DNA from: Raillietiella orientalis
Lineage: Eukaryota
Direction of reading: 5' to 3'
DNA: 64,000 bases
NCBI GenBank assembly: GCA_036172245.1
Contig: JAYWIR010000010.1
Coordinates: 3,224,001 to 3,288,000, forward strand
The number at the start of each line of letters is the position of its first letter. The first letter of the stretch is position 1. The notes beneath the pieces were generated by a model. The model did not search any database. It saw nothing but the letters and a program-made list of their open reading frames with translations, and was not told the DNA's origin. Positions 3,001 through 35,899 of this stretch are shown one piece after another. A program made the position numbers and the translations under genes.

Positions 3001-6000
3001 GCCATAGCACTTGAATCCAGGAATACGCTATAGTCCGTTTCATTTCAAAAAGCTCATGTTACAGTGGCCTCAACGAATTCTTGCTCTACGGTGAAGAGGC
3101 ATACCAGCTGTTTAGGACGGCGTGCGAGTTCGTCTTGCAAGCCTAGAAGCGAAATAGTCAACGAACATCCTGATCAGAGGACAAAGGGGAAAGATTTACA
3201 CGGATCTGTGAGAGGCAGAGAACTGCGGAAACACGCGAATGTCTCTTTTTTTCCCTTTGGAGCCATGTTTCCTTAGCTCCGCCTCTGAGCGAATCCGTTC
3301 AAGAGAACTGGTTTGCAACCCATAAATCATAGGTCCAAATTAGCATTCATTGAGAGACCTCTGACGACTGACTGGTTTGTGGAATGTCCGCCTCACATCT
3401 CAACACGTCTAGATGAGCCAGGATGTTGCGACATACCATGGCTGCAAGACTATAGTAAATCTCACTATGGATGAGTTGTCTGGCAGTTTCATCTCCTCAA
3501 GTATGCCAGTTGCCTAGATTTATTCTCGTCGTGTCATGTAGTCACCTCGGGGTGCCTCAGTGCTCTCTTGGTTTTTTATGTGCTCCTTTATTTTTTTTTT
3601 TTAAGCACAATTCCCCTCTTTCGTGCTCATTGGGTTTCTGTATAGATTTATTGTGTTAAATAAACAGCCAGGGTATGAAGCACTCTCACTGATTGTGAAT
3701 GCAGGTAGAAGCACTAAAAGATCTCTTTAGATTGAAGCATCTCAGTTACATTAGTTGTATTATAGATTACATCCACATTATTGTAAATTCTTTTCCCAGT
3801 TCCCACCAAAGGCACACAGGGAGAGAAGAGAACGAGCAGAACATGCAATTACCCATCATTCCAAGGTATTCTGATGGATATGGAAATGGAATTCAGAATT
3901 TGAGCTTCTACAACGGTGCCTTCCGTTCCAGAGTATCCCATAGCCGGTCGGTTCCAAAGATGCTCCCGGAAGCGATGCTTTTCGTCTGCACTGCTAGTCC
4001 ATTTTGGCATCTTCCCGTTCTACACGAACCATCTTCATTGGATGGTGCAACGACTCATTCTGATCAAACAGATGCTAACATGTGCAGATTTTTCTGATAC
4101 CTTTTGTCAAAAGCAAAAACAAAAGGAGCACAAGATGTGTGCATCGATGAAACAAACGGGTTTTTCCTTCCATCTGTAATTGACTGAAACCATTTACTCC
4201 GGGGTAAGATGGGCAGCGCGTCTCACGCCTGCCACATTCTCGGCGGCGTGAGACGCGAGCAAAGCCTCCTGTTTTTGAATTCGTGGTTGGCAATGCCGGA
4301 TTCGAAATACCTGTCCTTGCCCCGAAGTGTCGTGACACGATCGTCCCAAACTTCCTCACTCTTTGACCCTCTCTTCGTTTTGCTTCGGTTTGGCTTGTGC
4401 TGTGATGTTGAGTCCATTTCAGAACAGGAAAGTATCCACTTTTGAAGGCATATCTTCTGAGCTAGGAGTTGTGAAAGAGGAAAATCACAAAAGCGACAGC
4501 AGTTGTCTGCGATGGAAAACGGTGGTAGGTAAGGAACCAGCAAGTCTTCTCCTCGAAAGTGCAACTCCCTTTTACTTGCCTTTGAAAAGTTTTTATTCTG
4601 AAGAATATTTCAGCTTTTGCAATTGCACTCGGTTCAGAAAACTTCTGTTCCATTAAAGTTGAGAGCCAAAACGAACCTTTGCGAACTCCATGAACTGTTC
4701 CAGGTCTCGAAGCCAATCTTTGGACATGAAAATGAAGAGATGATCATTGTCCTTCAAGGACAGTAGTATCGTTCACATCAACATAAATTGTATGGCAGGA
4801 GAAAGCAAGCGGCGGAAGATGCCGAGAAGATCTTGCACTGTTTCAGATGATCTTGGAGTTTTTATATCCTGTTTGCTCTGATCTTCAGAAAAAATCATTT
4901 TTCGTAGGTCCATCGGTACAACTCTTGGAAACGCAATGCTTACAAAGAAATACCTACATTTCCAAGAGATGAAATATGACAAGTGGATGGAACAAAGAGA
5001 AGTTTTTTGAAAAAGGAATGAGGATTCATAAGTTTTTCAGTGCGATGCTCGCTTGCATTTCCATGTGATCTTCCGTCTTCGTGGCTTTTCTGAACCACTA
5101 GAGGGCGGGAGCAGAATCGACAACCTCGTTGGTACGGGATGCAGCTTTCAGATGCACGAGATCATTCATAACAGTGGTGGGAGTCTCTCCGTTCTTGCAC
5201 GTAATTTTTCTCATCTCGTACCGATCAACTGCATCGTTGGTTTGCCTCCTGTGCCAGGAGCCACGTAATACTGAATCCGGAAAAGATAAGGGTCAGCTGT
5301 AGGTTTGCATGAAGTTGAAAGTTTGTTTTGGATGGAAGCACGTCCCGTTCCATTATTCGAACTGTTGCGATGCATAGGCAGAGAAGGTATCCAATGCCGG
5401 CAAGTTTGCGTAGGAAGGAAGGAAAATGTGTCCTCTGGAGAGCATGGGATTGCTCAGTGAAGATATCCTGGCACTAGAATGCGCTACCACATCTCTCACA
5501 GGGGCTGCAGATGCGGGAACGCGGATAATCATATTCTTCGAAAATCTGGAACTCACAAGAACTTTCGGGATTCGTGAGTTGCTATTTCCGACTTCCAAGT
5601 TATAATTGCTATTTTTTTCTGCGACAGAAAAACGAGGCAGTTAAGCAGCAGACCTTCTGTCTTCAAAAACTTGGTGGGACCAGTGAACATTATAGTTGGA
5701 CCATGGTTACTTCAATGAGGATCGCCTTTTCACAGCAGAATGGACCACCAACGTGTTCAGATTGATCTTCAAGAAATCCAAACAGGAAACCAAGTTCGTT
5801 AACCGCAGCAGTCAAACAGCTTATTTTGCAGGCTTTGGCCTTAATACCGTGTGGATTCGGCATCCGTGTGAATGCTTCATTGGTCGAGAATGCATGCCTG
5901 TGTTGCCCACGGAACTTCTAAATCTACGAAATTCAATGCAGGGTTACAGAAAAAGCTGAAGAACCGGTATCTGCCTTTTGGTTCCGCTCGTGTGCCACTG

Positions 6001-6379
6001 TTATGTCTTCACATGATTTGCGCCTCGTCGATCGCAAGGCGCAAATCATAAGCTTTTGTATTTCATCGTCTTTTACGCTATCGATGATCATCAGTAACGG
6101 CAGTCCCGTGCAGAAAAATTATTGGGAGCTGGAGACTGTAACGAGTTCTTCGACGATTCGTACCGATCGCACCTTAGACTTTCTCACCCCGCAGAGCTCA
6201 CGCTCATCCTGCTTTAAGGATTGGCACCCGGCGACTCCGGGACATTTATTTCACAATAATAAAATAAACCCACAATTTGGAAAATACACCGTTGAAATGA
6301 AATTTTCCTATAAAAAGGTCCAGAGGAAGTTGAAGGCGAGAGTCCACCGCTGCTCCCGACCGGTTTCCTGAACGTTCAG

Positions 6380-7000
6380 AGCATAGGGGATAGGGGAAAA
6401 AACAAAAGCAAAAACAAATTGGAGGGTAGTGACAGGGTCTTTGACTTTTCCCTCTCCTTCACGAAACACTAGGAAAAGGCCAAAACAGGAAGGAGTGGGC
6501 AGTAAACAATAATCACCGGTCCTTTCAGAAGTTGCGCAGGATATCGGCGATCTCCTTCTTGACTTCCTTGTTTAGGTGAAACCACCTGGAAGCCGTCCTC
6601 ATACAGACAGCTGAGATGCTGGTGCCCTCCATTCTCCGCGCCCGCGACTCCAGCAAATGGGAAGCTGTAACGACGGCACGGATGCAACATGTCGTCGCTA
6701 TCATGGTGGCTGTATTGGCTCCACTTATCGTGAAGAATCGCCGCTGCAAGTCCGTCGCCGTGTCTCCGGTATGCAGGAGTGCTGAGTTCAGCCTCCTTCA
6801 AAGTTCCTGAAGGGCACTGCAGTCCAACAAGAGATGCGGAAACAATTTGCTCGCCCCACACTTCAAACAGTTCGGGGACACAACGTCCCCGGAGATCCGG
6901 TTCCTTCACTGGTTGCACTAGAAACCCCAATGCAGAAACAGCAGGATGTCCTGCTTACATTTCACCCGGAACACAGCAGTGTGTATACGCAAGGGAGGGA
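6380..7000 (-). mobile_element. Degenerate non-LTR retrotransposon (L1/Tx1-like) ORF2 3' end
   Basis: Frameshifted minus ORFs 6469..6930 and 6525..6749 (…TTCCIRAVVTASHLLESRARRMEG…EVKKEIADILRNF) resemble the C-terminal tails of the fragments at 31541-31981 (CIHAIVTVLHLLDSGSRRIE) and ~9740-9800 (QQKEELASVLQR). Confidence 0.5.
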
Positions 7001-7499
7001 GAACAAGTTCGTCGGAGGCTACTCTGAGCACCTCGTTCCATCGAAGCGGTCCCTTCTCCTCATGACATGAAGCGGAGGAGTCCGCTTTAGGGGAGGAGAT
7101 GGAACTGGTGGCAGGACGGCGTTTTCTTCGCTGGCGCTTTCGAAGGCTCAGATTTGTAGGTTTTGCAATTTCGTCCTTCTCCGCCTTGCTGGAAACCAAG
7201 GGGGAAGTTGCGACGCGGTCATCTGGGCTCCGAGACGAATGCTGTTGCTACACAAACCCTAACAGGGAATGCTGAAGGCTGACAGAGTGAAGTCTTATCT
7301 CTACTGAGCAAGGGAATGACCGATATTGTACTTGGCACCAGTTCTCTGGTAGTCTTTTACACCGACTCGCATCTCAGAAGACTGGAACGGTGGAAAGGTA
7401 AGAGCAGGGAAAAGAGGGAATCACAGTTTAATCTCGTCATGCCCTCTGCAGTCTGCGTGCAGTGCTGGCAGTATCTTTCTTTGCTCCATTTTCTAGATG

Positions 7500-8200
7500 G
7501 AGATCATTCTCTTACTCTCTTCAGCGAAAGGGACACAAAGCATGCGGCTTCCCACTTTTGCTGGCTTGCGTGCTTGCGACTCATGTCTGACAGTCGCCCA
7601 CTCGAATCAATGAGAACTGGACGATCAGAGGTGAGTGGGGAGGTATGCGAAAGAGTTCGTCGAGTATAAGGCGGCTCCTTAGCGGCGCTTCCTCGGAGAG
7701 GTGGGAGGCGCTTCCAGCTGTCTCTGAAAAGTGCCAACGGTACGATGCTATACCGATGGTCTGGCTCGAACCGTGCAAGAAAATCGGTCCCCTGGAGCTC
7801 CAGGCGTTCATTTGCCTAGTGTACAAGACCTGAGAAAGATGACAGCCCACTCCGTGATATGAGTTAGTGCTATGACGGTTTCGATCTCTGCACCTCCAGA
7901 ACACAGGTCCTGAGATGTGTAACCATGCCAGCCGAATGACTGAACCACATGCCTACTGAGAGGCAACAATAAAATCTCTGAGTCCCGGCAGAGAAGTAAA
8001 TGAGAAACGTATGGACACGTAAAATACAGACACACCGTAAGAAGAGTTTCGCCGTCCGGATGGGCTTTCTTCTCGACCAGCGATGCCGGAAGTCTCCTGT
8101 TCCTCTTGCATGATGAGGAACTTACCAAGGTGGCTCCACCTGCATCAGGGGGATGCCTTCTGCATCTCAGGCAGGCTTCAGAAGACGTTTAAAGATAAAA
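7500..8200 (-). mobile_element. Possible degenerate non-LTR ORF2 (post-RT) remnant
   Basis: Weak similarity of RLPASLVEKK…LTVCLYF to the post-RT segment at ~35200 (QVPLAERAFIENTFVFS). Heavily decayed. Confidence 0.25.
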
Positions 8201-10608
8201 CTGTGGTCCCAATCCCTCTCCCTCTCCTAGCTTATTATTTTTTCTTTCAGCTTGATTCCCCCTCCCCTTCACCCTGCTGGCCTTTCTGCGTAGCCAGTCT
8301 GCGCTCCGGAAGAAGGATTCTCCCCTTCTTGTACTCCAGAAGCTTTGCAGGAGAAAATTCTTATTTTGTGTGCTCATCTGCTTACGTGTCTGTGTTTTTC
8401 GGGAGTGCCCCAGGGTGAATTCTTCGTTCTGGTATGCCAGTCCATTTATATGGAATAATAGGATGAAAACACAATAGAAAAGGATCAGCTAATGCGAAAC
8501 GAAAGGACTTGGACCACACTGGGGACAGAACTAGGGAGCGAGTGGAGGGTAAAGAAGAAAGGCCAATAAATGAATAAATGGATAAGCAGGGATGAACTGA
8601 ACCGGCCTTGCAGGGGTGCTTATCATTCCCGTTGAGTGGGGACGTTATCGGTAGTTAGGACTCAGTTCGTCCACACTTGCTTGGAAACTCCCCTGTTTGC
8701 GCTCTTATTTGGGCCTCTTCACCCCACCCATTGCGGACGAGAAATTTGCAGACAGCTCTCTGGGATGTCCGTCTCACTCTTCGTCTATCTTGATAATCAC
8801 GGTTAACTTCATGTAGAGGAGAGTTACCAGCATTAGCAAGTAAACGTCGTCGTGACTGGTTGGCAAGGGTGCCGGCGCTCGATGCTAGGGAAAAACTCGA
8901 AGCCCGGGAAAAGTAGCGTCGGGGGCTGCCACTTGAAGGGGAGCGGAGCTACCAAAGGTAAGTAGGTAGCGACGTTAAGGGAATGGGAAAAAATCTTGCA
9001 GTGCTTCTTGGTCCTGAAGCCTGAGAACTTGGAAACGAAACCGGCAGTGCCCCCTAAGAACGAAGATCAAACGGAGTCGAGCAAACGGCTGAATCACTAG
9101 AGGTGAAAGCCACCGGCAGCTGTCGACTTTGGGAGAAGCGAATCAAAAGCAGCGAGTCATCCCAAGAAACACTGCTTTGCAAGGGAGTCTTGGATCCAGT
9201 GATCGCAGTAGGCGTCAATCAGGCTTGCCAAGCAAAATGGGAACCGGCTAAAGGAAGAACAAGAAGCGAGGAACAGATTGACGCAAAAGAATGCGGAGAT
9301 GGATGATCTCAAACGCGTGGATTTCTTTGCAGGACAATCGCCGCGCCGAACCACCAACCCCTGAATCTCGTAAAGCTATTTGTTTTATTTTCGCTGACGT
9401 TGAAACAGATCCCTGAAATTCTGAAACGCGCTCATACTGGACGTCCTTGTGATGGACTCAATAAGCAAAGAAAGCTTTCTCCCAGTCACAAAGGGGCGTC
9501 TGTGAAAAAAATCCATATGCACAGGTCATCTCTCATGCAAAAAACAGACAGTCATTTCTCCGCAGTGGAATTGCATTCCCAGTACGCTAGTAAGAGTTCT
9601 TGCTCGTGGGCAGATCATCTTGAGAGCTCCTCGCAGGAAAAATAAGGAAGAGAAGAGCAAACAAAAAATAAATAAGAGAACAAAATTGAGAATACTGGTG
9701 ACAAGGAGAGGGATCACAGACATGCTCTCTGGCGCCCTATTCATCCTTTGCAAAACACTGGCAAGTTCCTCCTTCTGTTGAGCGATGCAGCCATCTCGTG
9801 GTCATCCTCAAATTGGAGATCACCAGGCCGTATCTGTCCGTCGTCATCATCGTGGCTTTTCGCCGCCACGACGTCGCGTCAGCAGCACAGAGCCGCGATC
9901 GACGCCGTAGGCAACATTCCGCCGGGGTCGAGGAGGCCTCTCAGCACGCTTCGCGCGTTGTCTCTCGGTGATTCCAGGGACGCCGCCAAACTCTTCCGGA
10001 CGCTCCGGAAGGCAGCACACTCGAAAAGCGGACGCCACAAGGGTTCCTTTTCAGCAAACCTAGCCCCGTCCTAGCGTTTCCCTGGTCCGTTGGTGGAAGC
10101 ATGCGTTGTAAGGCACGGTCCGATGCAGACGTCGCAACGCCGAGTCCTGTTCCTTCCGGGGAGGCACGGAGCTGTCCAAAAACATCGCGGAGATCTCCAT
10201 TTCGTTCAAGGGGCTTTGGAGGAGATGCTTTCGGTGGAGAATTCCTTCGGGGTGGAACAACCCAAAAGTTTCTTGCTTCCTGCTGTTTCGCTGGACACCT
10301 GCCGATTCACCGTTCGGTCACTGTCTTAGTTGTCCCGTAGTGCCACAGCAAGTGCCGTTGTTGGAGCGCACGCGATTTTCCTGAAGGCCTTCCCAAACCT
10401 TTTTGAACGAGCAGAGAGCGTGAGCGATGGAAAGCCGCAGACACCTCTCTTTCTCCGAGTTCGTGCCGTCGGTTTTCGCCCACGTCCGAAATGTTTCCTG
10501 TTTTCAGGAACCCTGTGTTCGTGGGCGAGCGGGAGATCCAGTCTGTATCCGAAAACTTGACTGACACTTAATAAGTTATGAAATAATATAGAAGAAGAAA
10601 TGAAAGAA

Positions 10609-10704
10609 TGGAGAACAGAAAGAACGCCGTACCTTAGAGAAATAATGGATTCTCTTTCGCATTCTTCACCAGCTGAAAAAGTGATATTCATGAAAGGAGC
10701 GCAG
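10609..10704 (+). pseudogene. Fragment of phage terminase large subunit (GpA family), Wolbachia prophage WO-like
   Basis: Stop-free frame WRTERTPYLREIMDSLSHSSPAEKVIFMKGAQ matches the GpA N-terminal signature (TPYL.EIMD…V.FMK.AQ, just before the GxTE P-loop). It closely resembles the WO terminase as I recall it. AT-rich against GC-rich flanks. Confidence 0.8.
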
Positions 10705-10767
10705 TTGTTCCTTTATCTCAGTTAACTTTCGCTCTAGCTCATCATACTTGGCATCAGTGATTTCAGG
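10705..10767 (-). pseudogene. ligA: Fragment of bacterial NAD-dependent DNA ligase N-terminus (domain Ia)
   Basis: Minus frame PEITDAKYDELERKLTEIKEQ matches the LigA domain Ia motif P.ISDAEYD.L…L..LE. It abuts the terminase fragment directly. Confidence 0.7.
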
Positions 10768-10800
10768 TATTAGTAAAGTTAATTCCAGAATTCTCTAACC

Positions 10801-10834
10801 TGGCGCAGGACATATTAAAATACGTCCTGCGCCA
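10801..10834. repeat. Fold-back inverted repeat (16 bp arms, 2 nt loop) at the right end of the bacterial insert; second copy at 34819-34852
   Basis: TGGCGCAGGACATATT-AA-AATACGTCCTGCGCCA, 15/16 complementary. Confidence 0.9.
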
Positions 10835-11849
10835 AGGCGATGCCTGCCGAAGATCAGGGTGGTTTCCGGTGGCTCGAGTTCAAGAAGGAAGGAAGTCCTT
10901 CTGAGGCATTTGCTCGTTCGGCAAAGGTGCGCTCTGGCACGCAGCAATACGTGGTCCAGCGTTTTCCTGACAGTACCGATCTTCTCAACTGCAGCTGGCG
11001 TTCGATGCTCTCCAGCGTCAGCGAGCCAAATCTACATATCTTTCAAGAATTCTCGAAACCTTCTGAGCCCTGAAGGGCACTTGTGAGATCGTCGGTTCAC
11101 ATTCTAATCTCATAGGGGCGAGGCAAGCAAAAAGCAGGGGGAGGAGAAAGGGGGACACAAACGTGTTTTACATGGCGCGTCGTTCTGACAGGAGAAATCT
11201 GCCATCCAGAAACGAGTCGAGCATCGATTCTGACTTTTAGAGACGCTAGGCTGGGCTTTCTCAAGGAAGAAGTCCCTGAAATGGAAGCTCGGATACTCGA
11301 AGTACCCCAAACAGACGTAGTCCAGCTTCCCAAAAGAAGAAGAGCGAAAGCAGCGAGATCCCTCTTCTTGAAGCAGCGAGATGTTCAATCGTACACAAAT
11401 AACCCTTTGCTTAGGATTACATGCAAGTCGTTCTTTTTTTCTTCCTAGAAGTAGGGCCACGACGAATCACGATCGTATCCCGTAAGACGCGTTGGTTTCC
11501 AGCAAAGTCAAGGGACACCGTCCGCGAAGCGTTGGTGGGTTACAAAATGATTCCTACCTAGAGGGATCGGTCGTCTGTCCTCAAAAAAAAAGTTTTTTTC
11601 ATTCTTTTCCTTCCAGGCAGGTGCTGCGACGACTTCAACCATCGACTCCGTCCACCCGGCGAACTGGACTATTTAGCTGCAGGAGTCCGTTTTCGCATGG
11701 GGTAAATCTGCCTACGAAACAGAAGATACGCCCGACAGCCGTTGAGAGAGATCCTGGGTAATACCAGGAATCTGCTTCGGGAGTCGTTCATCCCCGTTGC
11801 CCCAGTGCTGCTCTCCCTACGGGAAGCAAGGGACAGCGACCTTCTCACA

Positions 11850-12530
11850 AAGTGGGAGGTGACGTGTTTAATAAACAATACAAAAAGAATTCAACGAGAG
11901 TGAACAACTCGGGAGCTGGAGGATGCTGCCACCCCGAGTATCCCTCCAAAAAGTCTGCTACGCCAGAGAGAGCTGCTAAGGATTTCTCCGGAGGAGATAC
12001 AGTGGTCCCAGCGTTCTGGAGCAGTGCTACCCTCCCTCTTAAGTGGCAAGAGGCGGTGATCCTTCTGTTGCATTGAGGACCTCCTGTGCAACGACCGCCG
12101 ACACCATTGAACCCGGGGGAGTGTAAGCTCCAACTGCAGCAGATAAGGAGAAAGAGAATCATCCCTCCTGCACCTGCTCATGAATTGTGTTGCCCTCCGC
12201 TCCCTGTGGGAACGCTTTTCCGCGTCCCTGCAAAACCCCGAGGGCAGCCCAAGAGACATTCTGAAGTGCCTCTTCCAGAGCGACGCCCTCACGCTGGTCG
12301 TGTTCTTAGCAGCATTCTGTTGCCTCCGCAGGATCGTGGTTCCATGGAGCAACAACTCAAGAGGAGGCCAAAATGATAGGGATGCCATCTACTTATCCGT
12401 CCTGTTCATGAGTATAGAGTCAAGATGGCCCCATCCAGTGATCCTAAAACAGGAACTTGCCGGCATCCTTACGAGGATGCAGAGGTTGGCTTCCAGCATG
12501 CGGTGATCTCTTCCCGAACCCTTCCAATTT
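11850..12530 (+). mobile_element. L1/Tx1-like ORF2 3' end with zf-RVT motif (family B)
   Basis: Across frameshifts it reads LPLKWQEAVILLLH…CSR*GEKESSLLHLLMNCVALRSLWERFSASLQNP…AAFCCLRRIVV, followed by a T-rich 3' region. Confidence 0.7.
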
Positions 12531-12899
12531 TTTTTTCGTATACATATTCTCTGTTTTATTTTTCTTTTTGATTCTCCCCTTTTCCTCTGCTGAGGAGGCT
12601 AAGCTCGCCGGCCTGCGCTTCAGTCTTCGGAAAGTTCATTTTTTTATATTTGTAACGTGGCAGGACCGAGCGTCCTGCCATTGACTTGTGTGTTCATAAA
12701 CGCCCTGGCACAACCGGGTGTCAAACCAATAGACTCTTCCTCCTCATCGCGTCGCCTTTATTATTTTTGCCCCATCACATCCCTACGAATTGCAAAGTAG
12801 CTTTTCCACAGCCCTCGCGGAGCGGGTGCCCGTGCTCTTTAGCGAAGTGAGCAGAGGGGAGAGGGATCGCGATGTAGAGGTCCTTTTCCGCAGGGCATC

Positions 12900-13450
12900 A
12901 GAAGCCGCTGTCGCGTCTCCCACCGTCCTGCCAGTTGCTGCCTCCCGAAGAACAGCGCACTGACCTCACCCACGCAATTGCTGGCCGCTCCACTCTTTGA
13001 CGACTTCCTCTTTGACCTCCGACCGGGAGAAGCGCCCCCCGTTCCGGGTTCTTACGCTCCCGGAGGGTTGAAGTTTTCGCTCTCTCCTCGGTGCAGATGC
13101 AGAGGACGCGACAGGGTGGCCGGGAAAATCACGACGGCGGGAAAACGCACCCGAGGGGTTTCGCACGCGAACGTCCATGCACAAGAAGGGATTTATGGCC
13201 ATCCTGGAGCTCCGACAAAGGGAGACTCCTTCCTCCGATGATTTGGGAATTTGAGGAGCTCTGCTCCGACATTATGCTCGGGAGAAGCCGTCTGCATAAA
13301 TCAAGCCGATGCCAGTTCAGCAAGTCGTTCTGTCGAGCGCTCCAGCGGACCGACTGCGCTCCATCACAGAAGCCACGGGTAGGGAGGGGCCGGCATTGAT
13401 CGACCTCTAAATGTCCTTTTGGAAAAGAAAGATAAAAGCTGCACAGATTC
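12900..13450 (-). mobile_element. Possible non-LTR ORF1 (RRM-like) remnant
   Basis: IIGGRSLPLSELQDGHKSLLVHG resembles ALEQKSIIIHG at ~21820. GC-rich and frameshifted. Confidence 0.3.
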
Positions 13451-15149
13451 ACCGAATCAGCACGCGATATGCGGCTGAGAGAGAGGAGGGGGGAGGGGAA
13501 GCAACTGCTTCACCCTCCCACTGAGAGGCAGAGGAGTGAAGGGAAGCAGACATCCAGGAGGAATGCTAGCGGCGAAGTCAAGAGGTGCGTAGGGACAGTA
13601 CGGTGCAGAAGGGAGAGCAAACGAAACGGGACGCATCCTTCTCTTCTCTTCAGCGGGTGAGAGGACAATGGGACGCACTTGTCGCCGCCCTGTTCCTTCT
13701 GGTGCCTCTGAGCCGGACGCGAGACAAGAACTGAGGTCTCTCCGTGCGCCACGCCAAGTGGAGCCGTGTCCCCTCGCTGGCGGAAGAAAGCCGAGTTCCG
13801 AAAGCGCTCCTGCGAAGATCTCAGTCCCCTTTCATCCACTCCCTTTTTTTTCTCCTCCTCCCCCGCACGCCTCAATCCATCAGTGGAAGCGAGAACACTC
13901 CTTTCGCCCTAGGCGCGATGCGGTCGCGAGCATGCCGCGGTTCTCAGGTCTGATGGACTGTCAGGGTAGTCTGAATCTTCTCCTACTCCCAGCAGTCGAA
14001 AGACCGAGGGAGCGTATGGATCGTCCCCTCTCGTGCGAGCGCTCCGGACGGGAATCGATCGCGAGGAGAGGAGCCCCAGGCGTTTCGGTTCTTCGCGGCT
14101 ATGGAGCACCCAACCGGTGCGCCTGCAGGCGCTTCTCAATTGATTCCGGAGATCGTAGACTTCTCTCAACGATCCTCGGATTGGGGTCGGAATCCTAGAG
14201 CTGTGCAAAATCGAAAGCGGTCTCGAAAGGCTCTGGCCCGGGGAAAACGAGGATGCGTGAGGAACGGGAGGGGGGGAGGGGTTCAGGGAGCCGCGGACTG
14301 GAGCACGAACCGAAAGGCGTGGCTTGCAGCTTGGGCTCTGGGGGGCCGGAAGCGGTGCACATCTCCCCTGGTGCCGGCAACTTTCCTTCCTGGCGTGTGC
14401 AGGGGCGACGCCCTCCCGTTGGTCGCAGCCGCTGGCGATTTGCACGAGCAGAGACTGCTCGCGGGGAAGAAGCAAGGAGACTTCCGTGGGGAAGGGATTT
14501 CCAGCCACCTGCGGTAGCTGCGTGCAGCGATCTGTAGAAATAAAGGAGACATCGGGTAGCGCGGAGACCCGAAACAATCCTCGCACCGAAGCAGTCACCG
14601 CGAAGTGAGGAACCAGTCGGTATGGGAACCGAGGTGAGGAGAACCGGCCATCCAGAAGGATTTTTTTTTTTCTTCTCTTCGACTCGCCTTCGTTAAAGAA
14701 AGGACGTCTTTCATCACGGAGATGGTATTGTCTATAATGAAATGTGCCTGCGCTCCCTGAACGTGGAATAAGAGCAGATTTTTTTTTTTTTTCCTCCCGA
14801 AACAATGTGCCTCTGGAATTCCACAGGGAGGAGCTTCCTAAGGAGCCCTGTGCGAATCTGGTGGCTACTGACAGTTGAGCTGGAAGAACAGTACCATAAA
14901 AATGCAGCACGACCGTGACCGAAACGATCCGAACTGAAAGTTTAGCAACGGAAGGATGCAATTTTGCTCTTTGAAGCTGCGCATGTACCAGCTAACGGAG
15001 AGCGGCGGGCGCGGTTGTTTGACCGGTCCATAGGAATCTGCGCGGCTCTTTGAACGACAGCAAAAACATCGATGTCGCGACAGCTCCGTGAGGAAGGAAG
15101 GTTTTCACTAGTTCACTCTGGATCGTTTATTTTTAAAAATAAACAACAA

Positions 15150-15570
15150 GAGTCAGAAACTAAGAAATTGCAAACAAAAAAGAAGTTCATGAAGTGGACC
15201 AGCGGGACGCAGATCGGCTTTCAAAAAGTAGGAAAAGAAGGGGAGAGGGACACTAAATAAGTGAAAGAAAGACGGAAGGCTAGGAATAGGGGTCTTTGGT
15301 TGAAGACCATTACTTCTAGAAGCGGCTCTGGACAGTGGCGATCTCCCTGGAGAATTCCGGCAGATGAGGTCACCTTGCAGCTGTCCTCGTGAAGGCGACT
15401 GTCATGCTAGTAACCTCCATTCTCCGCGAACCTGACTCCAGCACATGGAGGACTGTCACTATGGCGCGGATGCAACGGACTGTTTCTGTCACCTGCCGGA
15501 AGTTACCCGTTGCCGAGAGTTTCAGAAGAACAGCGGAAGAACACTAAAGGCGATAAGTGATGAGTTGACT
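15150..15570 (-). mobile_element. Non-LTR 3' end and UTR (family A), part of composite module copy 1
   Basis: Nucleotide homology to 31550-31980 and to 53930-54020 plus 54531-54780 (e.g. ggtctttggttgaagac; atggaggactgtcactat). Confidence 0.65.
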
Positions 15571-16100
15571 ATGTTGGCCTACCCACCAGCCTCCCTCTTC
15601 GCCGCAGTGGTGTCCTCTGCTGTCGGGGTATATGTTACCTGTCTATCGGCGAAGTGGGAGGTTTCCTGCAAGATCTTGGCACGCAGGAAGCCTATCGGTG
15701 GCTGGACTCCGCATCAGCTGGTTGACGCGGCAACAGCAAGAACCATCTCCAAGGGACTGCAACGTTGGAGGAACTCTTCTCCATTAAGCCGAGGAGTTGA
15801 AAGTGTCCCTGGTATTTATGGACAGGAAGATGCTTCTCCTCAAGTGGCAGCAATCGGCGTGCTGATACTGCACAGACTGAGGTCTTCCGTGCAATGCGTG
15901 CCGGCATTACTGGACGAGGGGAAACTTATCGCCGAAGTGTCCCACGTGTGAAGAGAAGGAGACCTTACCCCACCTCATAGTGCAGTGCGTCGCCCTCCGG
16001 GACTTGTGAGAACGCTTTTCCGCGTCCCTTCCACACGCCGTGGACGACCCCAGAGACTCTTTGACCCAGAGACTCTCAGTCGCAGCTCCGTGCTGCGTGC
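15570..16100 (+). mobile_element. L1/Tx1-like zf-RVT fragment (family B), part of composite module copy 1
   Basis: CPTCEEKETLPHLIVQCVALRDL*ERFS (CxxC…H…C motif), homologous to 31990-32520. Confidence 0.75.
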
Positions 16101-17111
16101 GCGGTGTCCTTGCGGCTAATGGAGACACCGAGGGAGGCCGCAGCGACGGGGGGGCTGTGCTGCACTCCACCGCTCCTGCGGATGGCTTCTTCCGCAGGAA
16201 GGCTGGCCCACCTGGGAAGGAAGAGCGAGGAGCTCGCTGGCATCCTTCAATATACGCTGAGGCCTCACCCACCACGAAATGCGATCCCTTCCCATCTCCC
16301 CAATTAATTTTGTCGTCGTTGTTGTTTTGTTAATCTTTATCGTTTGTTATAGTTTGTTTTCTTTTTGTTCTAATTTTGTTTCATTCCTCTTCCCCTTCGT
16401 GTACGTGATGGACTTCACTGGATCTCCCTCTTTTTTCCTAATGTAATAATTGGAATCGGTGAGCCTTTTGGCTCCATCGATTCCTGCAAGAGGAAGAAAC
16501 GCCTCGGCGCACCCGGCTGTGAAATCACAGAGCCTTTCTTGAGCCTGCTTTCTGTGAAGAATCGTCGCAGCAAGTTCCTAGCGGTTTCCTGCGGTTGTCG
16601 CAGAGGCGAAGCGAGTCTCCACCACATGTCCTCCAGGGCACTGCAGTCCAGCAAAAGATGCAGGAGATGCAGAGGTGACTGCATCACCCCGCACGCGGAA
16701 CAGTCCGAGGAGGCATCTCTCCCAGAAACCAGGCGCCTGCGTTGGTTGCACCGGAATCCCCTCTGCAGAAACAACAGAACGTACCTTTGAATCGGAGCCG
16801 GAACACGGAGGTGTCCAAACACAGGGGAGGAACTACGAGTTCTTCGAAGGATATTCCAAAAAGCTCACACCATGGAAGGAGACCACGGAAACGAGGGGTG
16901 GCGGTGTTCACCAATCCGCTTGTCTTGCAGCCGTTGAAGAGTTTTTCGATTCATGCAATGCTGCTGGAGAGCTTCCACCCCACCGGCTGGCTTCTGTGAT
17001 TGCTTGCCCTGAGGGCAGACAGTGCTGCGGCAAGGGGCGTGATTGCCATCCCGGGCCACTGCGTCGAATCCTGCAGGAGATCTCCCAACGGTTTGCGGAA
17101 GAGATTCTGCA
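15970..17111. repeat. ~1.14 kb near-identical duplication, copy 1 (copy 2 at 54780-55921)
   Basis: Constant offset of 38810. ORFs 16040..16333 = 54850..55143; 16415..16822 and 55225..55632 differ by one residue. Confidence 0.97.
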
Positions 17112-17560
17112 ACAATAGCAGTTCTTCTGGGCGCACTTTCAAAGAGATGACCCAAGACTACAGACCTTTCTGTCTCCAGGCATTCCAGTTCATGGGGAGG
17201 CAGGAGATGCACGGATGGGCTAGCAGTAGGGAGGACAGATGCCTCAAAGAATAGCCGAATCCAGTCCTCCGGCGTACGTTGCGCGGTAGAAGCGAAGGAA
17301 GTACTGCTCTCCCAACGCATCGCTGGAGCATGTTGCTTGCCGGAGCCCACCAATGGGAGAACCAAAATTTCCCACAAAATTTCCTAAAATTTCACACAGG
17401 AAGAGAAGTCGGAACTGTACATGCAGCCCGATCTTCTCGATGGTGAGGATGCCCAAGCCAGAGTCCTAGCGCTGCACCAGCAATTCTTTCAGTCGGATCC
17501 GAGACCTTGTAGCTCCCCACAAGGCTTTACATAGGAAGGGAACGCTTGCGTAAGCAACCG
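16410..17560 (-). mobile_element. L1/Tx1-like ORF2 3' end with zf-RVT (family C)
   Basis: SGLGILTIEK (GGLG-type motif, ~17460), then CSACGVMQSPLHLLHLLLDCSALEDMWWRLASPL in ORF 16415..16822. Confidence 0.75.
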
Positions 17561-17899
17561 GCTGCTTTTCAATGCTTCGGTGCACTCGTTTCTTCGCTCA
17601 TTACGGGTGACTCATAACAAACCCCAGACTCTTTGCCGCGACGGTCATCTGCACCAGCTGAGCGAAATAGGTCACAGCACGGGATGGCAAAAGAAGGCTC
17701 AGTTTGTCGTACGACCAGGGTGTTTGAAAGCTCTCAGCAGTCACCCAGTTCACGAGGCTTCATTCAAATTTAGAAGAATCGAGAAAAGCACTCCACCGAG
17801 CGTGACGGCAGCTCAAAAGATGTGCATGTGTGAGAATTCGCTATTCTTCAGTAATGAAGATCGATGAACCTTGCTCACTGTCGTTCAGATATAGACAGA

Positions 17900-18230
17900 A
17901 ACAAATCGAGCCCATCCAAGAAATCATCTCCGCGATATTTTGTTGGCTGGAATTCTAAGAAATCTTGAACGTGCAGTTCAGAAGACGTGCAAAAACAGGA
18001 GGGTTTCTGGAGCTAAACGTCAGCTCGAATTCGAAAGCGTCACGAAGCTTCGGTTGGTCCAAGGACCACGGTGTCCATGGAAACTCACTGAGACTCACTG
18101 ACACTGCCTTGCAGTTCTGGCCTGATTTTCTTTCGGTCGCATCCAAAGAATGGGTACGTTCCTTCCAACACGTGTTCAATTCATTCGATAGGATCTTGAG
18201 GCTGAACACCAATGATGAACTCTAAGAAAC
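17900..18230 (-). pseudogene. Possible leucine-rich-repeat gene remnant
   Basis: SLSEFPW…PKL spacing is reminiscent of arthropod LRR proteins. Very decayed. Confidence 0.2.
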
Positions 18231-27700: not shown

Positions 27701-30349
27701 TTGTAAAAATGCCATCACGGGGAGTAAGCGATGCTTAGGGGTACGCGCAGATTGAACACCGCTGTGTCTGCTTATGTGGCAGCATGCATTTTTGGGCAAC
27801 GTCCGAAGAGTGATCAAATACAAAAATTGCAGCTAACGATCATTCTTTTGCTGCTCAGCAAACAGACCGTGAACAGACTTGGGATCGTATCCGTTCGTAG
27901 ATAGGTTGCTCCTATGGAAGCACCGCAAATCTACTATACGCAAGATCTTTTTAGTCCTTGAGTTTCCTGTTTTGAGGTTTTGAATTCTTCCATGAGAGGG
28001 AAGGTTCAGTGTGCTACGATATCAGGGTGTTCCAGAATAAGAGACGATTCTGAATTTGCCATTTATCATACATTATCCGATACGAGCTCATTATTCACCT
28101 TCAGTTTACAGCAACGCTCCTGTCTTTCATTTGAACTTTGATCATTAACTTTATACATCTGATTCTTGAATTATTTTTGCCTACATGGAAAGCTCTCGAG
28201 AGAAATTTCCAAGTTTAATTGCCTTCTGTTTCCCTAAACGGGATGGTTCTACTAGTCTTTTCCGCTCTCAATGTATTTCACACGTAATGTATTTCTGATT
28301 TCACAAATTCTGAGAATTTCATTTGGATATGTCATGAGCTCCTTTGCATTGCTGCGCTGTGAAAGTATTTGGAAAATGTAATGGCGAAAAGCGTTTCAAG
28401 ATTCGCTTTATTTTTATCATTTAGATTTTGCTTCCTCCAAGTAGCATCAGAAGATCTCCTCTCGCCTCTGCCATCTTTCATTATTACTAATGGAGACCTA
28501 GGATTTTTTGTTTTTAAAAAAAATTGATCTCGTAGTGCTTGGATTTCGTCCCAACCACCCAGAAAGATTAATGCTTTGGATGATACTTCATGTGAACATA
28601 GTCAATCAAATGCACACAAGCTTATGTCAAGAAAGATATATGCTTAAAATCCCTGCAAAGATACTTTCTAGTGAAGTTCCGTAAGCAGACTCACTCACAA
28701 CACGTGCACATGCACACAAACAGGTGTATGTTTATAACATATGTTATTCTTATACATGCTTAAGAGTGGTATCTTTCTCAAGGAAACTGTGATCCAGAAA
28801 GTCCTTGAATTTTCCAACGTTGTTGTATTTTTGTTGCTGAAGTTTCTTCAACGTCTAAAGGGGGATAACGAATTTCATAAAAGCATTTTTCAATTCAGAC
28901 TTGTATGGTTTCGAATTGAAGGATCAGATTGACTGTCTGCAGCGATTTTGGTTCCTTTCCTCTGAAGAGATAGTGAAGATCGGCATCACGAGCACTGCCT
29001 ATGCCTGCGTCGTTGCACTTCTTGGAGACAATGATCAGAAGCGTATATCTATGATGAAGGAATCAGAATGATAATTACAATGTGGTTTTGACATTCCCAG
29101 GTGACCTCTGCGGAGGTCTAGCATATCGTTGCTGATGTGCAGATGGATATCTCCAGGCATGACGTAGATCTAGTCATTATAGTAAGGTCTTTTGCTTTTA
29201 TTTTTCTGACTTAACTGGCAACACTTTCCAGGAAGGAATTGTCCAGAGGCTGGTACTCTCATATTTCTTTCTTCTTTCAATCCTCAGAATGGAATTATAC
29301 GATTTTCGAATGCAGCAGTAAAACTAATGATTTTCAATTCCTCTATCTCTCAGACACGTCGAGATCAGCGAAACCCAGTCTTTTTCCGGGATAGTTCAGT
29401 CTATTTGTTCACAGGGACAGTGCAAAGAGACCACTTTTTCCAGTCTCCAGAAAAAGTGACCGAGTCACTCTAAGGTTTCTGGTCCTATGTAAGCTGCTGT
29501 ATCTCATGTTGAAGTTTTTCTTTTGCAGAAAAAAATGTCAAATTTTTGATGAAACCGTGGATGCAGATGGCACTTCTTTCAGTGTAGCTTTATTAACGAA
29601 TCGATTGTTTTAAAAACGCGTTTGTTCTTCTTTCTCAGAGAATACATCGGAATTGGATATACCACATATACCACTACACACACATATCTTCCATTCTTCA
29701 CCAGGCTTGTACAACACATCCTCTAAGGTTCTCTTTAAAGACGTGTGCTGAAGCAGAATAACTGTACCCTTCCTCTTTATTGGTTTGAACCGTTATTTTC
29801 CGTTCATCTGTTAATGATCCTGACGCACCTTTCTAACTTCGGCTCTGTAGTCCATGCTTGATGACTTTGGCGCACGAGTCCAAAAGCCTGCCCGCTCATT
29901 TGAACGGCGATCAAATGGAGCACTCAGAGGACGGATGCACTAGCCCGCGGCTGTATTAGTTCAAGCATTTCCTTGTCTACCATATTTTATAGAGTGCTGA
30001 CCTTAATATTCTGAGCTTAGGATACAGATAAGCAATTCAAAGAAGAATCGGCAAACATCCGCATCTGTTTCCTTTGAAGCAGCACTCACCATTTGGCCCC
30101 TTATGAACTGGCTCCATAAATAAATTCCTCATCACGTAATAAAAATGGAAGAGACTGGTTCGCTTCTCCATTTCTGCCCCCAACTGTTTATCAATCCTGT
30201 ATGGTTCAGACTATTTCTGGGTGGATTGCTAAGTCAAAAAAACGCTTCACCTCCAGATAAGAAAAGCCTCTTGATTAAACTATTCAGCTCTTACCGTGTA
30301 GAGCCAATGGATAATCCTACTTTGTAGGTATTTTGAAACCCATCCACTT

Positions 30350-31980: not shown

Positions 31981-31989
31981 CCAGCCTCC

Positions 31990-33720: not shown

Positions 33721-34626
33721 TAAGGGAAAAGAGAAATGAAAAAAAAAAAAAAACGTGAAGTGGTCACATCAAGGCATATCACAGGGCTCCCTGGAGTCCT
33801 CCATCTGCTGAGAGATGTGGCATCCTCAAATTGGAGATCACCAGGCCGTATCTGTCCGTCGTCATCATCGTGGCTTTTCGCCGCCACGACGTCGCGTCAG
33901 CAGCACAGAGCCGCGATCGACGCCGTAGGCAACATTCCGCCGGGGTCGAGGAGGCCTCTCAGCACGCTTCGCGCGTTGTCTCTCGGTGATTCCAGGGACG
34001 CCGCCAAACTCTTCCGGACGCTCCGGAAGGCAGCACACTCGAAAAGCGGACGCCACAAGGGTTCCTTTTCAGCAAACCTAGCCCCGTCCTAGCGTTTCCC
34101 TGGTCCGTTGGTGGAAGCATGCGTTGTAAGGCACGGTCCGATGCAGACGTCGCAACGCCGAGTCCTGTTCCTTCCGGGGAGGCACGGAGCTGTCCAAAAA
34201 CATCGCGGAGATCTCCATTTCGTTCAAGGGGCTTTGGAGGAGATGCTTTCGGTGGAGAATTCCTTCGGGGTGGAACAACCCAAAAGTTTCTTGCTTCCTG
34301 CTGTTTCGCTGGACACCTGCCGATTCACCGTTCGGTCACTGTCTTAGTTGTCCCGTAGTGCCACAGCAAGTGCCGTTGTTGGAGCGCACGCGATTTTCCT
34401 GAAGGCCTTCCCAAACCTTTTTGAACGAGCAGAGAGCGTGAGCGATGGAAAGCCGCAGACACCTCTCTTTCTCCGAGTTCGTGCCGTCGGTTTTCGCCCA
34501 CGTCCGAAATGTTTCCTGTTTTCAGGAACCCTGTGTTCGTGGGCGAGCGGGAGATCCAGTCTGTATCCGAAAACTTGACTGACACTTAATAAGTTATGAA
34601 ATAATATAGAAGAAGAAATGAAAGAA

Positions 34627-34722
34627 TGGAGAACAGAAAGAACGCCGTACCTTAGAGAAATAATGGATTCTCTTTCGCATTCTTCACCAGCTGAAAAAGT
34701 GATATTCATGAAAGGAGCGCAG
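34627..34722 (+). pseudogene. Phage terminase large subunit (GpA, WO-like) fragment, copy 2
   Basis: Identical to 10609-10704. Confidence 0.8.
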
Positions 34723-34785
34723 TTGTTCCTTTATCTCAGTTAACTTTCGCTCTAGCTCATCATACTTGGCATCAGTGATTTCAGG
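34723..34785 (-). pseudogene. ligA: Bacterial NAD-dependent DNA ligase N-terminal fragment, copy 2
   Basis: Identical to 10705-10767. Confidence 0.7.
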
Positions 34786-35899
34786 TATTAGTAAAGTTAA
34801 TTCCAGAATTCTCTAACCTGGCGCAGGACATATTAAAATACGTCCTGCGCCAAGGTGATGCCTGCCGAAGATCAGGGTGGTTTCCGGTGGCTCGAGTTCA
34901 AGAAGGAAGGAAGTCCTTCTGAGGCATTTGCTCGTTCGGCAAGGGTGCGCTCTGGCACGCACTAATGTGTGGTCCAGCATTTTCCTGTCAGTGTCGGTCT
35001 TCTCAACTGCAGCTGGCGTTCCATCTTCTCCAGCGTTCAGGAGGCTAAGATCACCGTCCCGATGGGTAGCGCACAAGTCCTTCAAGCGAACCTAAGGTCT
35101 CTGCGTCCTCCAAATGGCATTCCGCAGAAGGTACTCGGTCCGCTTTTTCGCCCGACTGGGAGGGAGGAAAACAAAAGCAGGAGCGGAGGATGAGAAAACG
35201 AACGTGTTTTCTATGAAGGCCCGTTCGGCAAGGGGAACTTGCCATCCAGGAACGTGCTGAGCGTCGGTTGTGCCTTCTGAAGACAGCTGGACCACGTCTT
35301 CTCTGTAGGGAACTTCCCCAACGGTGCGGCTTGCCGGTGCCTTGAAACATGAGGCAGGATCTGCTTGAGCTTAGTGCTCTTCAGCACCCACTTCCAGCTG
35401 ATGCTGAAGGCTCACAGGCAGAGTCCGGACGTCTCGCCGAGCTTGCGCCTGGCATGCCGGGCTGGGAGATTCGGTCATCCGCTGCTGTTGTCCAGCCCGG
35501 TGGCATCACACGAGTTATGTTCGAGTTATCCTATGGTGAGCGAGCACGTGAGTCAAAGGAGCAAGTCTGGCGTGGTCATGGTTAGTTGGTGCTTGCATGG
35601 ACTGGACTTGTGGAGCGGATCCGCTCGGGGATCCCCACGATTGGAAACTTTAAGTACCACGGAGTAGGGATGCTTGTGCTTAGCAGAAGCCTGACCCTGC
35701 TGTTTTCGAAAGGCAGAAGAGGGCAGCTTGGATCACTCCAGGGTAGCAAATTTTCCTTTGCCTGATCAGGTTTAAAACGCGTTCGTAGTTCTCTTGCGTT
35801 CCGATTGTCTTCTTGCTTGTCTCTCTCTCAGAGATGTGAAAAAGAGGACCGAGGACCTCCTACCGAAAGCTTGTGAAGCCCAGGGGAGGAAGGGGGAAA

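What the first reader, a model, noticed from the sequence alone, without database searches (positions are those of the whole stretch)
10566..10818. Wolbachia/prophage-WO-like DNA mosaic (terminase plus ligA scraps) inserted in a host retroelement and present twice
Seen: an AT-rich ~250 bp patch in GC-rich retroelement DNA. It encodes WRTERTPYLREIMDSLSHSSPAEKVIFMKGAQ (+, 10609-10704) directly fused to PEITDAKYDELERKLTEIKEQ (-, 10705-10767), with two unassigned ~30-40 bp AT-rich pieces on either side. An identical copy lies at ~34584-34836. Established: these motifs typify the GpA phage terminase large subunit and domain Ia of bacterial NAD-dependent ligase; animals normally encode neither. Inference: tiny pieces from unlinked loci of an endosymbiont genome (Wolbachia-like from recalled sequence, not verified) were concatenated and captured at a DNA break, recording a past or cryptic infection. 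Neither peptide appears as such in the supplied ORF track.
Basis: partly seen in the sequence, partly recalled or inferred. Interest (0 to 1): 0.85.

Follow-up and report, generated by a model that had tools for sequence, protein, structure and literature searches.

The report
Patchwork Wolbachia DNA scrap in host repeat
A roughly 260-base patch made of three tiny pieces of Wolbachia and phage WO genes sits inside a GC-rich repeat of a eukaryotic genome and occurs twice; it is a small, unusually well-resolved example of the known transfer of endosymbiont DNA into host chromosomes.

Summary
Window 10607-10704 is a sense fragment of the phage WO terminase large subunit (GpA family), up to 94% DNA identity. 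Window 10703-10768 is an antisense fragment of Wolbachia ligA (domain Ia), 94%. I add a third piece: 10763-10804 is a sense fragment of purQ, 42/42 identical in two Wolbachia genomes. These genes are unlinked in every Wolbachia genome examined. Adjacent pieces share 1-2, 2 and 4 bases, and the right end runs into a 34-nt near-perfect palindrome (10801-10834). The left 41 bp (10566-10606) stay unassigned. Nowhere else in the 64 kb window matches Wolbachia. The best-matching genomes form one group that includes a supergroup F strain. Six of 9 differing codons are synonymous, which suggests an unsampled donor and little decay since transfer. The second copy lies in a 1141-bp block that is 99.8% identical (9803-10943 = 33821-34961), with diverged or unrelated sequence on both sides. 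This indicates a recent gene conversion or segmental copy, not two insertions. The "retroelement" context is not supported: 0 of 250 ORFs match a reverse transcriptase, integrase or gag domain. Verdict: a complex micro-NUWT, most likely filler DNA from end-joining repair. It is a new member of a known kind. Read-level confirmation was not possible.

The parts
9803..10565 (.). Left flank: GC-rich (57%) non-coding host repeat, part of the block shared with copy 2
   Evidence: 100% identical to 33821-34583 over 763 columns. No Pfam domain in any ORF. No Wolbachia match.
10566..10606 (.). Unassigned AT-rich filler, 41 bp, 19.5% GC
   Evidence: Composition. There are only weak, inconsistent matches. 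One is 25/27 to the metK 3' end in 3 of 60 genomes, but it is absent from the metK ends of the best-matching genomes. One is 20/22 inside an unnamed ORF. The 28-mer 10564-10591 matches 0 of 60 Wolbachia genomes at <=3 mismatches. No significant phage match. No template elsewhere in the window beyond a purine-rich 16-mer.
10607..10704 (+). Piece A: phage WO terminase large subunit (GpA) fragment, sense, about residues 39-71 of the 571-aa frame
   Evidence: 88% to phage WO records, E = 3e-26. 94% (91/97) to G045 = named locus L005. Alignment and frame. GpA_ATPase covers residues 34-279 of the WO protein.
10703..10768 (-). Piece B: Wolbachia ligA fragment, coding strand is the window's minus strand, within N-terminal domain Ia
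   Evidence: 94% over 65-66 bp in G015, G038, G030, G037 and G033; 59/62. The source ORF scores 742 bits to NCBIfam LigA. Pfam Nlig-Ia covers residues 14-61, and the fragment lies at about 34-54.
10763..10804 (+). Piece C: Wolbachia purQ-type (FGAM synthase glutamine amidotransferase) fragment, sense
   Evidence: 42/42 identical in G043 and G015; 98% in G040, G042, G037 and G033. The source ORF's best NCBIfam matches are all FGAM synthase/PurQ, below the curated cut-offs. Pfam GATase_5 scores 237 bits.
10801..10834 (.). 34-nt near-perfect palindrome at the right junction. The left arm begins with the last 4 nt of piece C; the right arm is GC-rich like the flank.
   Evidence: 11-bp outer stem plus 3-bp inner stem, -16.5 kcal/mol, z = -5.8, 0 of 200 shuffles fold as well. 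Exact 11-mer inverted repeat 10801-10811 / 10824-10834. Piece C ends at 10804.
10835..10943 (.). Right flank within the near-identical block
   Evidence: Columns 10838-10943 have 104 of 106 identical to copy 2; identity then falls to 80.5% (10944-11025) and 52% (11026-11262).
33821..34961 (.). Copy 2 of the whole block (= 9803-10943 + 24018). Its patch is at 34584-34852, with piece A at 34625-34722, B at 34721-34786 and C at 34781-34822.
   Evidence: Self-BLAST; identical run; same Wolbachia matches.

Best explanation
This is a complex ('mosaic') nuclear Wolbachia transfer of micro size. DNA from a Wolbachia strain carrying prophage WO reached a host germline nucleus. The strain is related to the genome group that contains the supergroup F strain wPaur. 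Three short, unlinked stretches became joined head to tail in mixed orientation: terminase 98 bp, ligA 66 bp and purQ 42 bp, plus 41 bp of unknown origin. They were fixed as filler DNA when a chromosome break in a GC-rich non-coding repeat was repaired. The joining was by microhomology-using end joining. It was either ligation of fragments or, as I think more likely for at least the right end, short bursts of microhomology-primed copying with template switches (the polymerase-theta / synthesis-dependent MMEJ style). The last such step would have been a snap-back on the host's own right flank, producing the palindrome. Later, a roughly 1.1-kb tract carrying the patch was copied into a second site 24 kb away by gene conversion or a small segmental duplication. 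The fragments are 14-32 codons long and have no function as genes. SHOWN: Wolbachia/WO origin, gene identities, unlinked sources, shared bases at junctions, the palindrome, the two-copy structure. INFERRED: a break-repair origin, a single event, the order of events, the polymerase involved.
For: Origin: piece A matches 12 phage WO records. The patch matches 57 of 60 Wolbachia-genus genomes at E <= 0.001. Best identities are A 94%, B 94%, C 100%.

Gene identities.

Unlinked sources: in G033 the three lie at 704 kb, 664 kb and 956 kb. In G015, B and C are 138 kb apart. In G045 and G037 they lie on three different contigs.

Mixed orientation: B and C have the opposite relative orientation in G015, G033, G043 and G044 compared with the window, so a deletion alone cannot make the B/C joint.

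Embedded in non-Wolbachia DNA: no other match in 64 kb, a piggyBac remnant nearby, and no prokaryote genome held for the window.

Junctions: shared bases are 1-2, 2 (5 of 6) and 4. A total of 7-8 has probability 0.006-0.085 under simple chance models.

Palindrome: z = -5.8.

Donor group: the same roughly 10 genomes top both the B and C lists. G045, which holds named locus L005, matches all three pieces and is a supergroup F strain (PMC9903615, passages).

Little decay: 6 of 9 differing codons are synonymous, with no stop or indel (P about 0.01-0.03).

Later copying: 2 differences in 1141 bp, against 80% and then about 52% identity just outside.
Against: No reads, no whole host genome and no empty site could be examined, so the junctions rest on the assembly alone.

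The microhomology statistic is modest. It depends on the assumed match probability and on how the A/B joint is counted.

The left 41 bp have no identified source, and no cis template was found for them. Templated synthesis is therefore not demonstrated for that end.

A and B are collinear and only 40 kb apart in one genome (G033), which leaves room for a deletion origin of that one joint.

The exact identity of the two copies could in principle be an assembly or polishing effect.

The host is only inferred to be an arthropod-like eukaryote (weak).
Confidence: 0.7

Rival explanations
1. The patch is an eroded remnant of a large insert. A long stretch of the Wolbachia chromosome (hundreds of kb) was integrated and later reduced to about 200 bp by large deletions and at least one inversion. 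The microhomologies would be deletion scars.
For: Large Wolbachia inserts with later rearrangement are known (PMC4299567, abstract start in the listing). A and B are collinear, in the same orientation and 40 kb apart in G033. Deletions commonly use 2-4 nt microhomology (established knowledge).
Against: B and C have the opposite relative orientation in four of four best-matching genomes that carry both on one contig (G015, G033, G043, G044), so an inversion is needed as well. No other Wolbachia remnant lies anywhere in the 64 kb. Six of 9 differing codons are synonymous and there are no indels, which argues for little time spent decaying. Prophage position differs among strains, so the collinearity in G033 may be chance; that genome has three terminase copies.
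Confidence: 0.15
2. The patch is an artefact: a chimera made during whole-genome amplification, library construction or assembly of an infected specimen. It would not be present in the host chromosome.
For: No reads could be laid on the locus (none was listed) and no genome is held. The two copies are identical over 1035 bp, as repeat polishing could produce. Amplification chimeras also show microhomology and inversions (recalled, not from a call).
Against: The pieces are 42-98 bp, shorter than any read, and three or four of them are joined within 260 bp. An assembler would need many identical chimeric molecules to build this. The patch is embedded in two places whose outer flanks differ. There is no other Wolbachia sequence in the window. 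The sequence differs by about 5% from every sampled Wolbachia.
Confidence: 0.07
3. The patch was made by reverse-transcriptase template jumping. A host retroelement's reverse transcriptase switched from its own RNA to Wolbachia/WO transcripts, and the chimeric cDNA was integrated and then retrotransposed to give the second copy.
For: Template switches use short microhomologies (established knowledge). The patch exists in two copies.
Against: No reverse transcriptase, RNase H, integrase or gag domain in 0 of 250 ORFs tested. The pieces are sense, antisense, sense relative to their genes, which is not expected from copying mRNAs. There is no poly(A) tail or target-site duplication at the block edges (by eye). 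Identity to the other copy falls in steps outside the block, which fits conversion between old paralogues, not a new retrotransposed copy.
Confidence: 0.04

Closest known systems
Nuclear Wolbachia transfers (NUWTs / nuwts) in arthropods and nematodes
   Same: Wolbachia-derived, non-functional DNA embedded in host chromosomal sequence. Such inserts can outlive the infection and reveal the supergroup of a past or present symbiont (PMC12693587, abstract and section 16 read). They are often duplicated after insertion (PMC3849323 and PMC4299567, titles and abstract starts).
   Different: Published screens that I read use long or strong matches; for example HMM hits below 1e-30 (PMC12693587, section 16). 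This patch would fall below such a threshold piece by piece. It is a concatenation of 42-98 bp scraps from unlinked genes rather than one contiguous tract. In PMC3849323 the words 'mosaic', 'rearrang' and 'microhomolog' occur 0 times.
Complex / mosaic organelle insertions (NUMTs, NUPTs) and capture of mitochondrial DNA fragments at double-strand breaks
   Same: Several non-contiguous fragments of a cytoplasmic genome are joined in mixed orientation and fixed in nuclear DNA, with end joining and microhomology implicated (PMC6215612, title and abstract start seen). The yeast break-capture experiments are recalled, not read here.
   Different: The donor is a bacterial endosymbiont with its prophage, not an organelle. 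The fragments are at the very small end of the range. One end carries a long palindrome.
Polymerase-theta mediated end joining / synthesis-dependent MMEJ with templated insertions and snap-back synthesis
   Same: Short insertions are copied from templates in cis or in trans, primed by 1-4 nt microhomologies, and include inverted copies of the flank (PMC2943611, PMC4912351 and PMC5068794: titles and abstract starts seen). The 34-nt palindrome and the 1-4 nt shared bases fit this pattern.
   Different: Typical templated insertions are shorter and are copied from nearby sequence. Here the templates would be foreign bacterial DNA, and each copied tract is 42-98 bp. No enzyme dependence can be tested from sequence.

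Membership tests
Nuclear Wolbachia transfer (NUWT) | DNA-level similarity that nests within Wolbachia / phage WO diversity | tested here: met
   Pieces A, B and C match at 94%, 94% and 100%. 57 of 60 Wolbachia-genus genomes match at E <= 0.001. 12 of the 40 matching phage records are Wolbachia phage; the other 28 are weak matches (those listed have E near 1).
Nuclear Wolbachia transfer (NUWT) | Physically joined to host, non-Wolbachia chromosomal DNA on both sides | tested here: met
   This holds within the assembly only. The flanks are 57-58% GC. No other Wolbachia match occurs in 64 kb. There is a eukaryotic piggyBac-type transposase remnant at 42465-43215.
Nuclear Wolbachia transfer (NUWT) | Junctions confirmed by independent reads or PCR, so that contamination and chimeras are excluded | not testable with these tools
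   No whole genome is held and no sequencing run could be listed.
Phage terminase large subunit, GpA family (source of piece A) | The source protein carries the GpA_ATPase and GpA_nuclease domains, and the fragment aligns within them | tested here: met
   The WO frame of 571 aa has GpA_ATPase at 34-279 (325 bits) and GpA_nuclease at 290-569 (306 bits). The fragment corresponds to residues about 39-71.
NAD-dependent DNA ligase LigA, domain Ia (source of piece B) | The source ORF passes the LigA equivalog cut-off, and the fragment lies in the N-terminal Ia domain | tested here: met
   NF005932 scores 742 bits against a cut-off of 369. Nlig-Ia covers residues 14-61. The fragment maps to about residues 34-54 of the stop-to-stop frame.
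PurQ (FGAM synthase glutamine amidotransferase subunit; source of piece C) | The source ORF passes a PurQ equivalog cut-off | tested here: inconclusive
   All 7 NCBIfam matches are FGAM synthase models, but they fall below the curated cut-offs (186 against 298; 158 against 177.8). Pfam GATase_5 scores 237 bits against a cut-off of 27. I name it purQ-type on that basis.
   0 of 100 ORFs >= 110 aa (whole window) and 0 of 150 ORFs of 60-109 aa in 5000-18500 and 30000-37500 have such a domain; 6 of the 156 short ORFs were not sent. There is no codon-position bias in the flank ORFs. Very degraded or unmodelled elements cannot be excluded.
Mosaic insertion formed by end joining | Two or more non-contiguous donor fragments joined directly, with short microhomology at the joints | tested here: met
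   Three fragments come from loci 40-290 kb apart or on different contigs. Shared bases are 1-2, 2 and 4, with a chance probability of 0.006-0.085 for the total.
Mosaic insertion formed by end joining | A pre-insertion (empty) site showing that the patch fills a break | not testable with these tools
   The only paralogue in the window also carries the patch. No host genome is held.
Polymerase-theta type templated insertion | An inverted or direct copy of flanking sequence next to the joint (snap-back) | tested here: met
   The 11-nt arm 10801-10811 is the exact reverse complement of 10824-10834. The fold has z = -5.8.
Polymerase-theta type templated insertion | Dependence on the polymerase | not testable with these tools
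   This needs genetics in the host.

The most novel reading that the evidence does not exclude
The patch was not ligated from loose fragments. It was written by a repair polymerase that hopped between several Wolbachia DNA molecules as templates inside a germline nucleus, and finished with a snap-back on the host flank. If so, 'micro-NUWTs' of this kind would lie below the length and score thresholds of current screens. They could be a widespread, overlooked class of scar that records both past infections (here by a WO-carrying relative of supergroup F) and the repair pathway that admits bacterial DNA into animal genomes. The carrying repeat may also be spreading the patch by conversion among its copies.
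Probability: 0.25. Interest if true: 0.6.

Novelty: new member of a known kind. Interest (0 to 1): 0.4.

Why it matters
Transfers of Wolbachia DNA into host chromosomes are common, but how the DNA gets in is poorly documented at base resolution. This locus shows every internal joint of a multi-fragment insert: the shared bases, the mixed orientations, and a palindrome at one end. That makes the repair route a testable question.

The patch is also a marker of contact with a prophage-carrying Wolbachia close to the group that includes a supergroup F strain. This would be informative if the host is uninfected today or carries another supergroup.

On the practical side, it shows that scraps of 40-100 bp escape the thresholds of the usual NUWT screens. 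It also shows they can look like two independent insertions when they are one event copied by conversion.

Tried and rejected
Each item below was tried and led nowhere or was rejected.

1. Own-genome search for copy number and empty sites: no genome is held.
2. Sequencing runs: none was listed and no RNA holder was listed.
3. Earlier findings of this scan: nothing by place or by sequence.
4. An exact word across the A/B joint in metagenome contigs: 0 matches.
5. An exact word of piece A in viral contigs: 0 matches. Of 76 IMG/VR terminase loci, 58 matched piece A, with a best identity of 88.7%. That is no closer than L005 at 93.8%.
6. Assigning the left filler to the metK 3' end. The match is 25/27 in G010, G028 and G008. 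I rejected it because the metK ends of G033, G045 and G037 do not carry the sequence.
7. Assigning 10564-10585 to an unnamed 330-aa ORF. The match is 20/22, E about 0.02; the ORF has no NCBIfam family, and the longer 28-mer matches 0 of 60 genomes. It stays unassigned.
8. The right end 10795-10860 against five genomes: only chance-level hits, E >= 0.45.
9. A cis template for the left filler within the window: only a purine-rich 16-mer at 23697. The k-mer counts are close to the shuffled expectation.
10. Retroelement domains: none.
11. Rfam and tRNA scans of the window: 0 hits each.
12. Host identification: only a weak hint towards arthropods, from piggyBac-like clusters.
13. Literature: four searches and word look-ups in two NUWT papers found no description of a micro-mosaic NUWT with resolved microhomology joints. 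This is a limited search, and supplements were not opened.
Full report
**What is there.** Window 10566-10823 is an AT-rich patch in GC-rich DNA. GC is 0.20 (10566-10606), 0.41 (10607-10704), 0.40 (10705-10767), 0.32 (10768-10804) and 0.32 (10805-10823). The flanks have 0.57 (9803-10565) and 0.58 (10824-11025). A second copy lies 24018 bases downstream.

**Origin of the pieces.** A blastn of 10560-10825 against 50,697 phage records matched 40 records. Twelve are Wolbachia phage WO, all over window 10607-10704, with up to 87.8% identity and E = 3e-26, under the annotated terminase large subunit. The other 28 are weak matches; those listed have E near 1.

- In the WO record the fragment corresponds to residues about 39-71 of a 571-aa frame. 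That frame carries GpA_ATPase (residues 34-279) and GpA_nuclease.
- I obtained Wolbachia genome handles from a terminase search of genome contigs and searched the patch against 60 genomes of the genus. 57 matched at E <= 0.001.
- Three adjoining pieces emerged. Piece A, 10607-10703/4, reaches 94% in G045. Piece B, 10703-10768, reaches 94% in G015, G038, G030, G037 and G033. Piece C, 10763-10804, is 42/42 identical in G043 and G015 and 98% in four more genomes.
- Piece B lies antisense in an ORF that scores 742 bits to NCBIfam LigA, inside its Nlig-Ia domain.
- Piece C lies in sense in an ORF whose NCBIfam matches are all FGAM synthase/PurQ. These fall below the curated cut-offs, but Pfam GATase_5 scores 237 bits.

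Its right-hand 'unassigned' piece is purQ.

**Control.** All 64 kb of the window, in four pieces, were searched against five of the best-matching genomes at E <= 0.001. Only the two copies of the patch matched.

**Unassigned left end.** The 41 bp at 10566-10606 have no convincing source.

- A 25/27 match to the 3' end of metK occurs in 3 of 60 genomes. The metK ends of the genomes that best match B and C do not carry the sequence, so I reject it.
- A 20/22 match (E about 0.02) lies in an unnamed ORF.
- The 28-mer 10564-10591 matches 0 of 60 genomes with up to 3 mismatches.

**Donor.** The same roughly ten genomes top the lists for both B and C: G015, G030, G033, G037, G038, G040, G042, G043, G044 and G045. 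Every other listed B match is at 84% or less.

- G045 holds the named locus L005, a MAG of the Wolbachia of Penenirmus auritus. PMC9903615 places this strain in supergroup F (passages read).
- L005 is the best of 58 matching named terminase loci, at 91/97. None of 76 IMG/VR loci is closer; the best is 88.7%.
- Against the nearest references, 9 codons differ. Six of these are synonymous, and there are no stops or indels. The probability is about 0.01-0.03 if the changes were random.
- I infer that most differences arose among living bacteria. The donor is therefore an unsampled relative, and the patch has decayed little since transfer.

**Joints.** I extended each donor sequence past its breakpoint.

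- A and B share 1-2 bases.
- B and C share 2 bases exactly, or 5 of 6.
- The last 4 bases of C (TGGC) are also the first bases of a 34-nt near-perfect palindrome at 10801-10834. It has an 11-bp outer stem and a 3-bp inner stem, -16.5 kcal/mol, z = -5.8, and 0 of 200 shuffles fold as well. Its right arm is GC-rich like the flank.
- A total of 7-8 shared bases over three joints has probability 0.006-0.085 under simple models. This is suggestive, not proof.

**Source loci and orientation.** The source loci are unlinked. In G033 they lie at 704, 664 and 956 kb. In G015, B and C lie at 521 and 660 kb. In G045 and G037 they are on three contigs. In G015, G033, G043 and G044, B and C have the opposite relative orientation from the window, so deletion alone cannot create that joint. 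A and B are collinear and 40 kb apart in G033, so a deletion origin for that one joint is not excluded.

**The two copies.** The paralogy spans 9767-11262 = 33797-35303. Identity by segment is:

| Window segment | Identity to copy 2 |
|---|---|
| 9767-9802 | 53% |
| 9803-10837 (1035 columns) | 100% |
| 10838-10943 | 98.1% (2 differences) |
| 10944-11025 | 80.5% |
| 11026-11262 | 52% |

Outside 9767-11262 the flanks are unrelated. This step pattern fits one insertion followed by a recent copy of a roughly 1.1-kb tract, by gene conversion into an older, diverged paralogue or by a small segmental duplication. It does not fit two insertions. An assembly or polishing effect cannot be excluded without reads.

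**Context.** I found no support for a retroelement.

- 0 of 100 ORFs >= 110 aa across the window have a retroelement domain.
- 0 of 150 ORFs of 60-109 aa in 5000-18500 and 30000-37500 have one; 6 of the 156 were not sent.
- The only Pfam hits are two pieces of a piggyBac-type transposase at 42465-43215.
- The flank ORFs are rich in R, S and P and show no codon-position bias.
- Rfam and tRNA scans found nothing.
- No prokaryote genome is held for the window. Atlas clusters near the piggyBac remnant are eukaryotic; 3 of the 4 rows shown have Arthropoda as the commonest phylum (weak).

**Mechanism.** The best reading is a complex micro-NUWT: bacterial DNA scraps fixed as filler when a break in a host repeat was repaired by microhomology-using end joining. 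The palindrome points to a snap-back, and so to a synthesis-dependent, polymerase-theta-like route for at least the right end. This is inference by analogy with two literatures. One covers mosaic organelle insertions (PMC6215612, title and abstract start). The other covers templated insertions (PMC2943611, PMC4912351 and PMC5068794, titles and abstract starts).

The rivals and my estimates are:

- erosion of a large insert, 0.15;
- an amplification or assembly chimera, 0.07;
- reverse-transcriptase template jumping, 0.04.

**Novelty and limits.** NUWTs are well known (PMC12693587, abstract and section 16; PMC3849323, PMC4046930 and PMC4299567, listing). The screen I read accepts HMM hits below 1e-30, which scraps this small would not reach. 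In four searches and two word look-ups I found no description of a micro-mosaic NUWT with resolved joints. That search is limited, and supplements were not opened.

I rate it a new member of a known kind, with interest 0.4. What remains open is read-level proof, genome-wide copy number, the empty site, the host's identity and infection status, and the source of the left 41 bp.

Noticed in passing
window 42465-43215 (+), with a tandem repeat at 42348-42426: Remnant of a piggyBac-type transposase (Pfam DDE_Tnp_1_7), split over two overlapping frames (42465-42794 and 42646-43215), so it is frameshifted. Just upstream is a short array of 24-25 bp repeats that could be subterminal repeats of the element.
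   Followed up: partly
window 15970-17136 = 54780-55946; 15198-16064 ~ 31582-32457: Two further repeat pairs in the window. One is 1167 bp at 99.2% identity, 38.8 kb apart; the other is about 880 bp at 83%. The region is a patchwork of GC-rich repeats of different ages, none with a recognisable protein domain.
   Followed up: no
L001 1386-1598 (phage WO record MN180249.1): The deposited terminase CDS starts at locus position 1584, but the open frame runs from 1386 and the upstream part is conserved (it is the part found in the window). A 120-nt antisense 'hypothetical protein' is annotated over it. The deposited start is probably too far downstream.
   Followed up: partly
G015:C1:526273-526737 and 626508-627128; G043:C1:895965-897072 (L098, L099): In two of the five best-matching Wolbachia genomes metK is broken. 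In G015 it is split into two parts about 100 kb apart. In G043 it carries 12 in-frame stops. It is intact (391 aa) in G033, G045 and G037, where it lies about 5 kb from ligA.
   Followed up: no
window 10838-11262 vs 34856-35303: Of 115 substitutions between the two copies to the right of the identical run, 72 are transitions. Several are CA/TG against CG pairs by eye, which hints at CpG decay, and so at cytosine methylation, in this host repeat.
   Followed up: no
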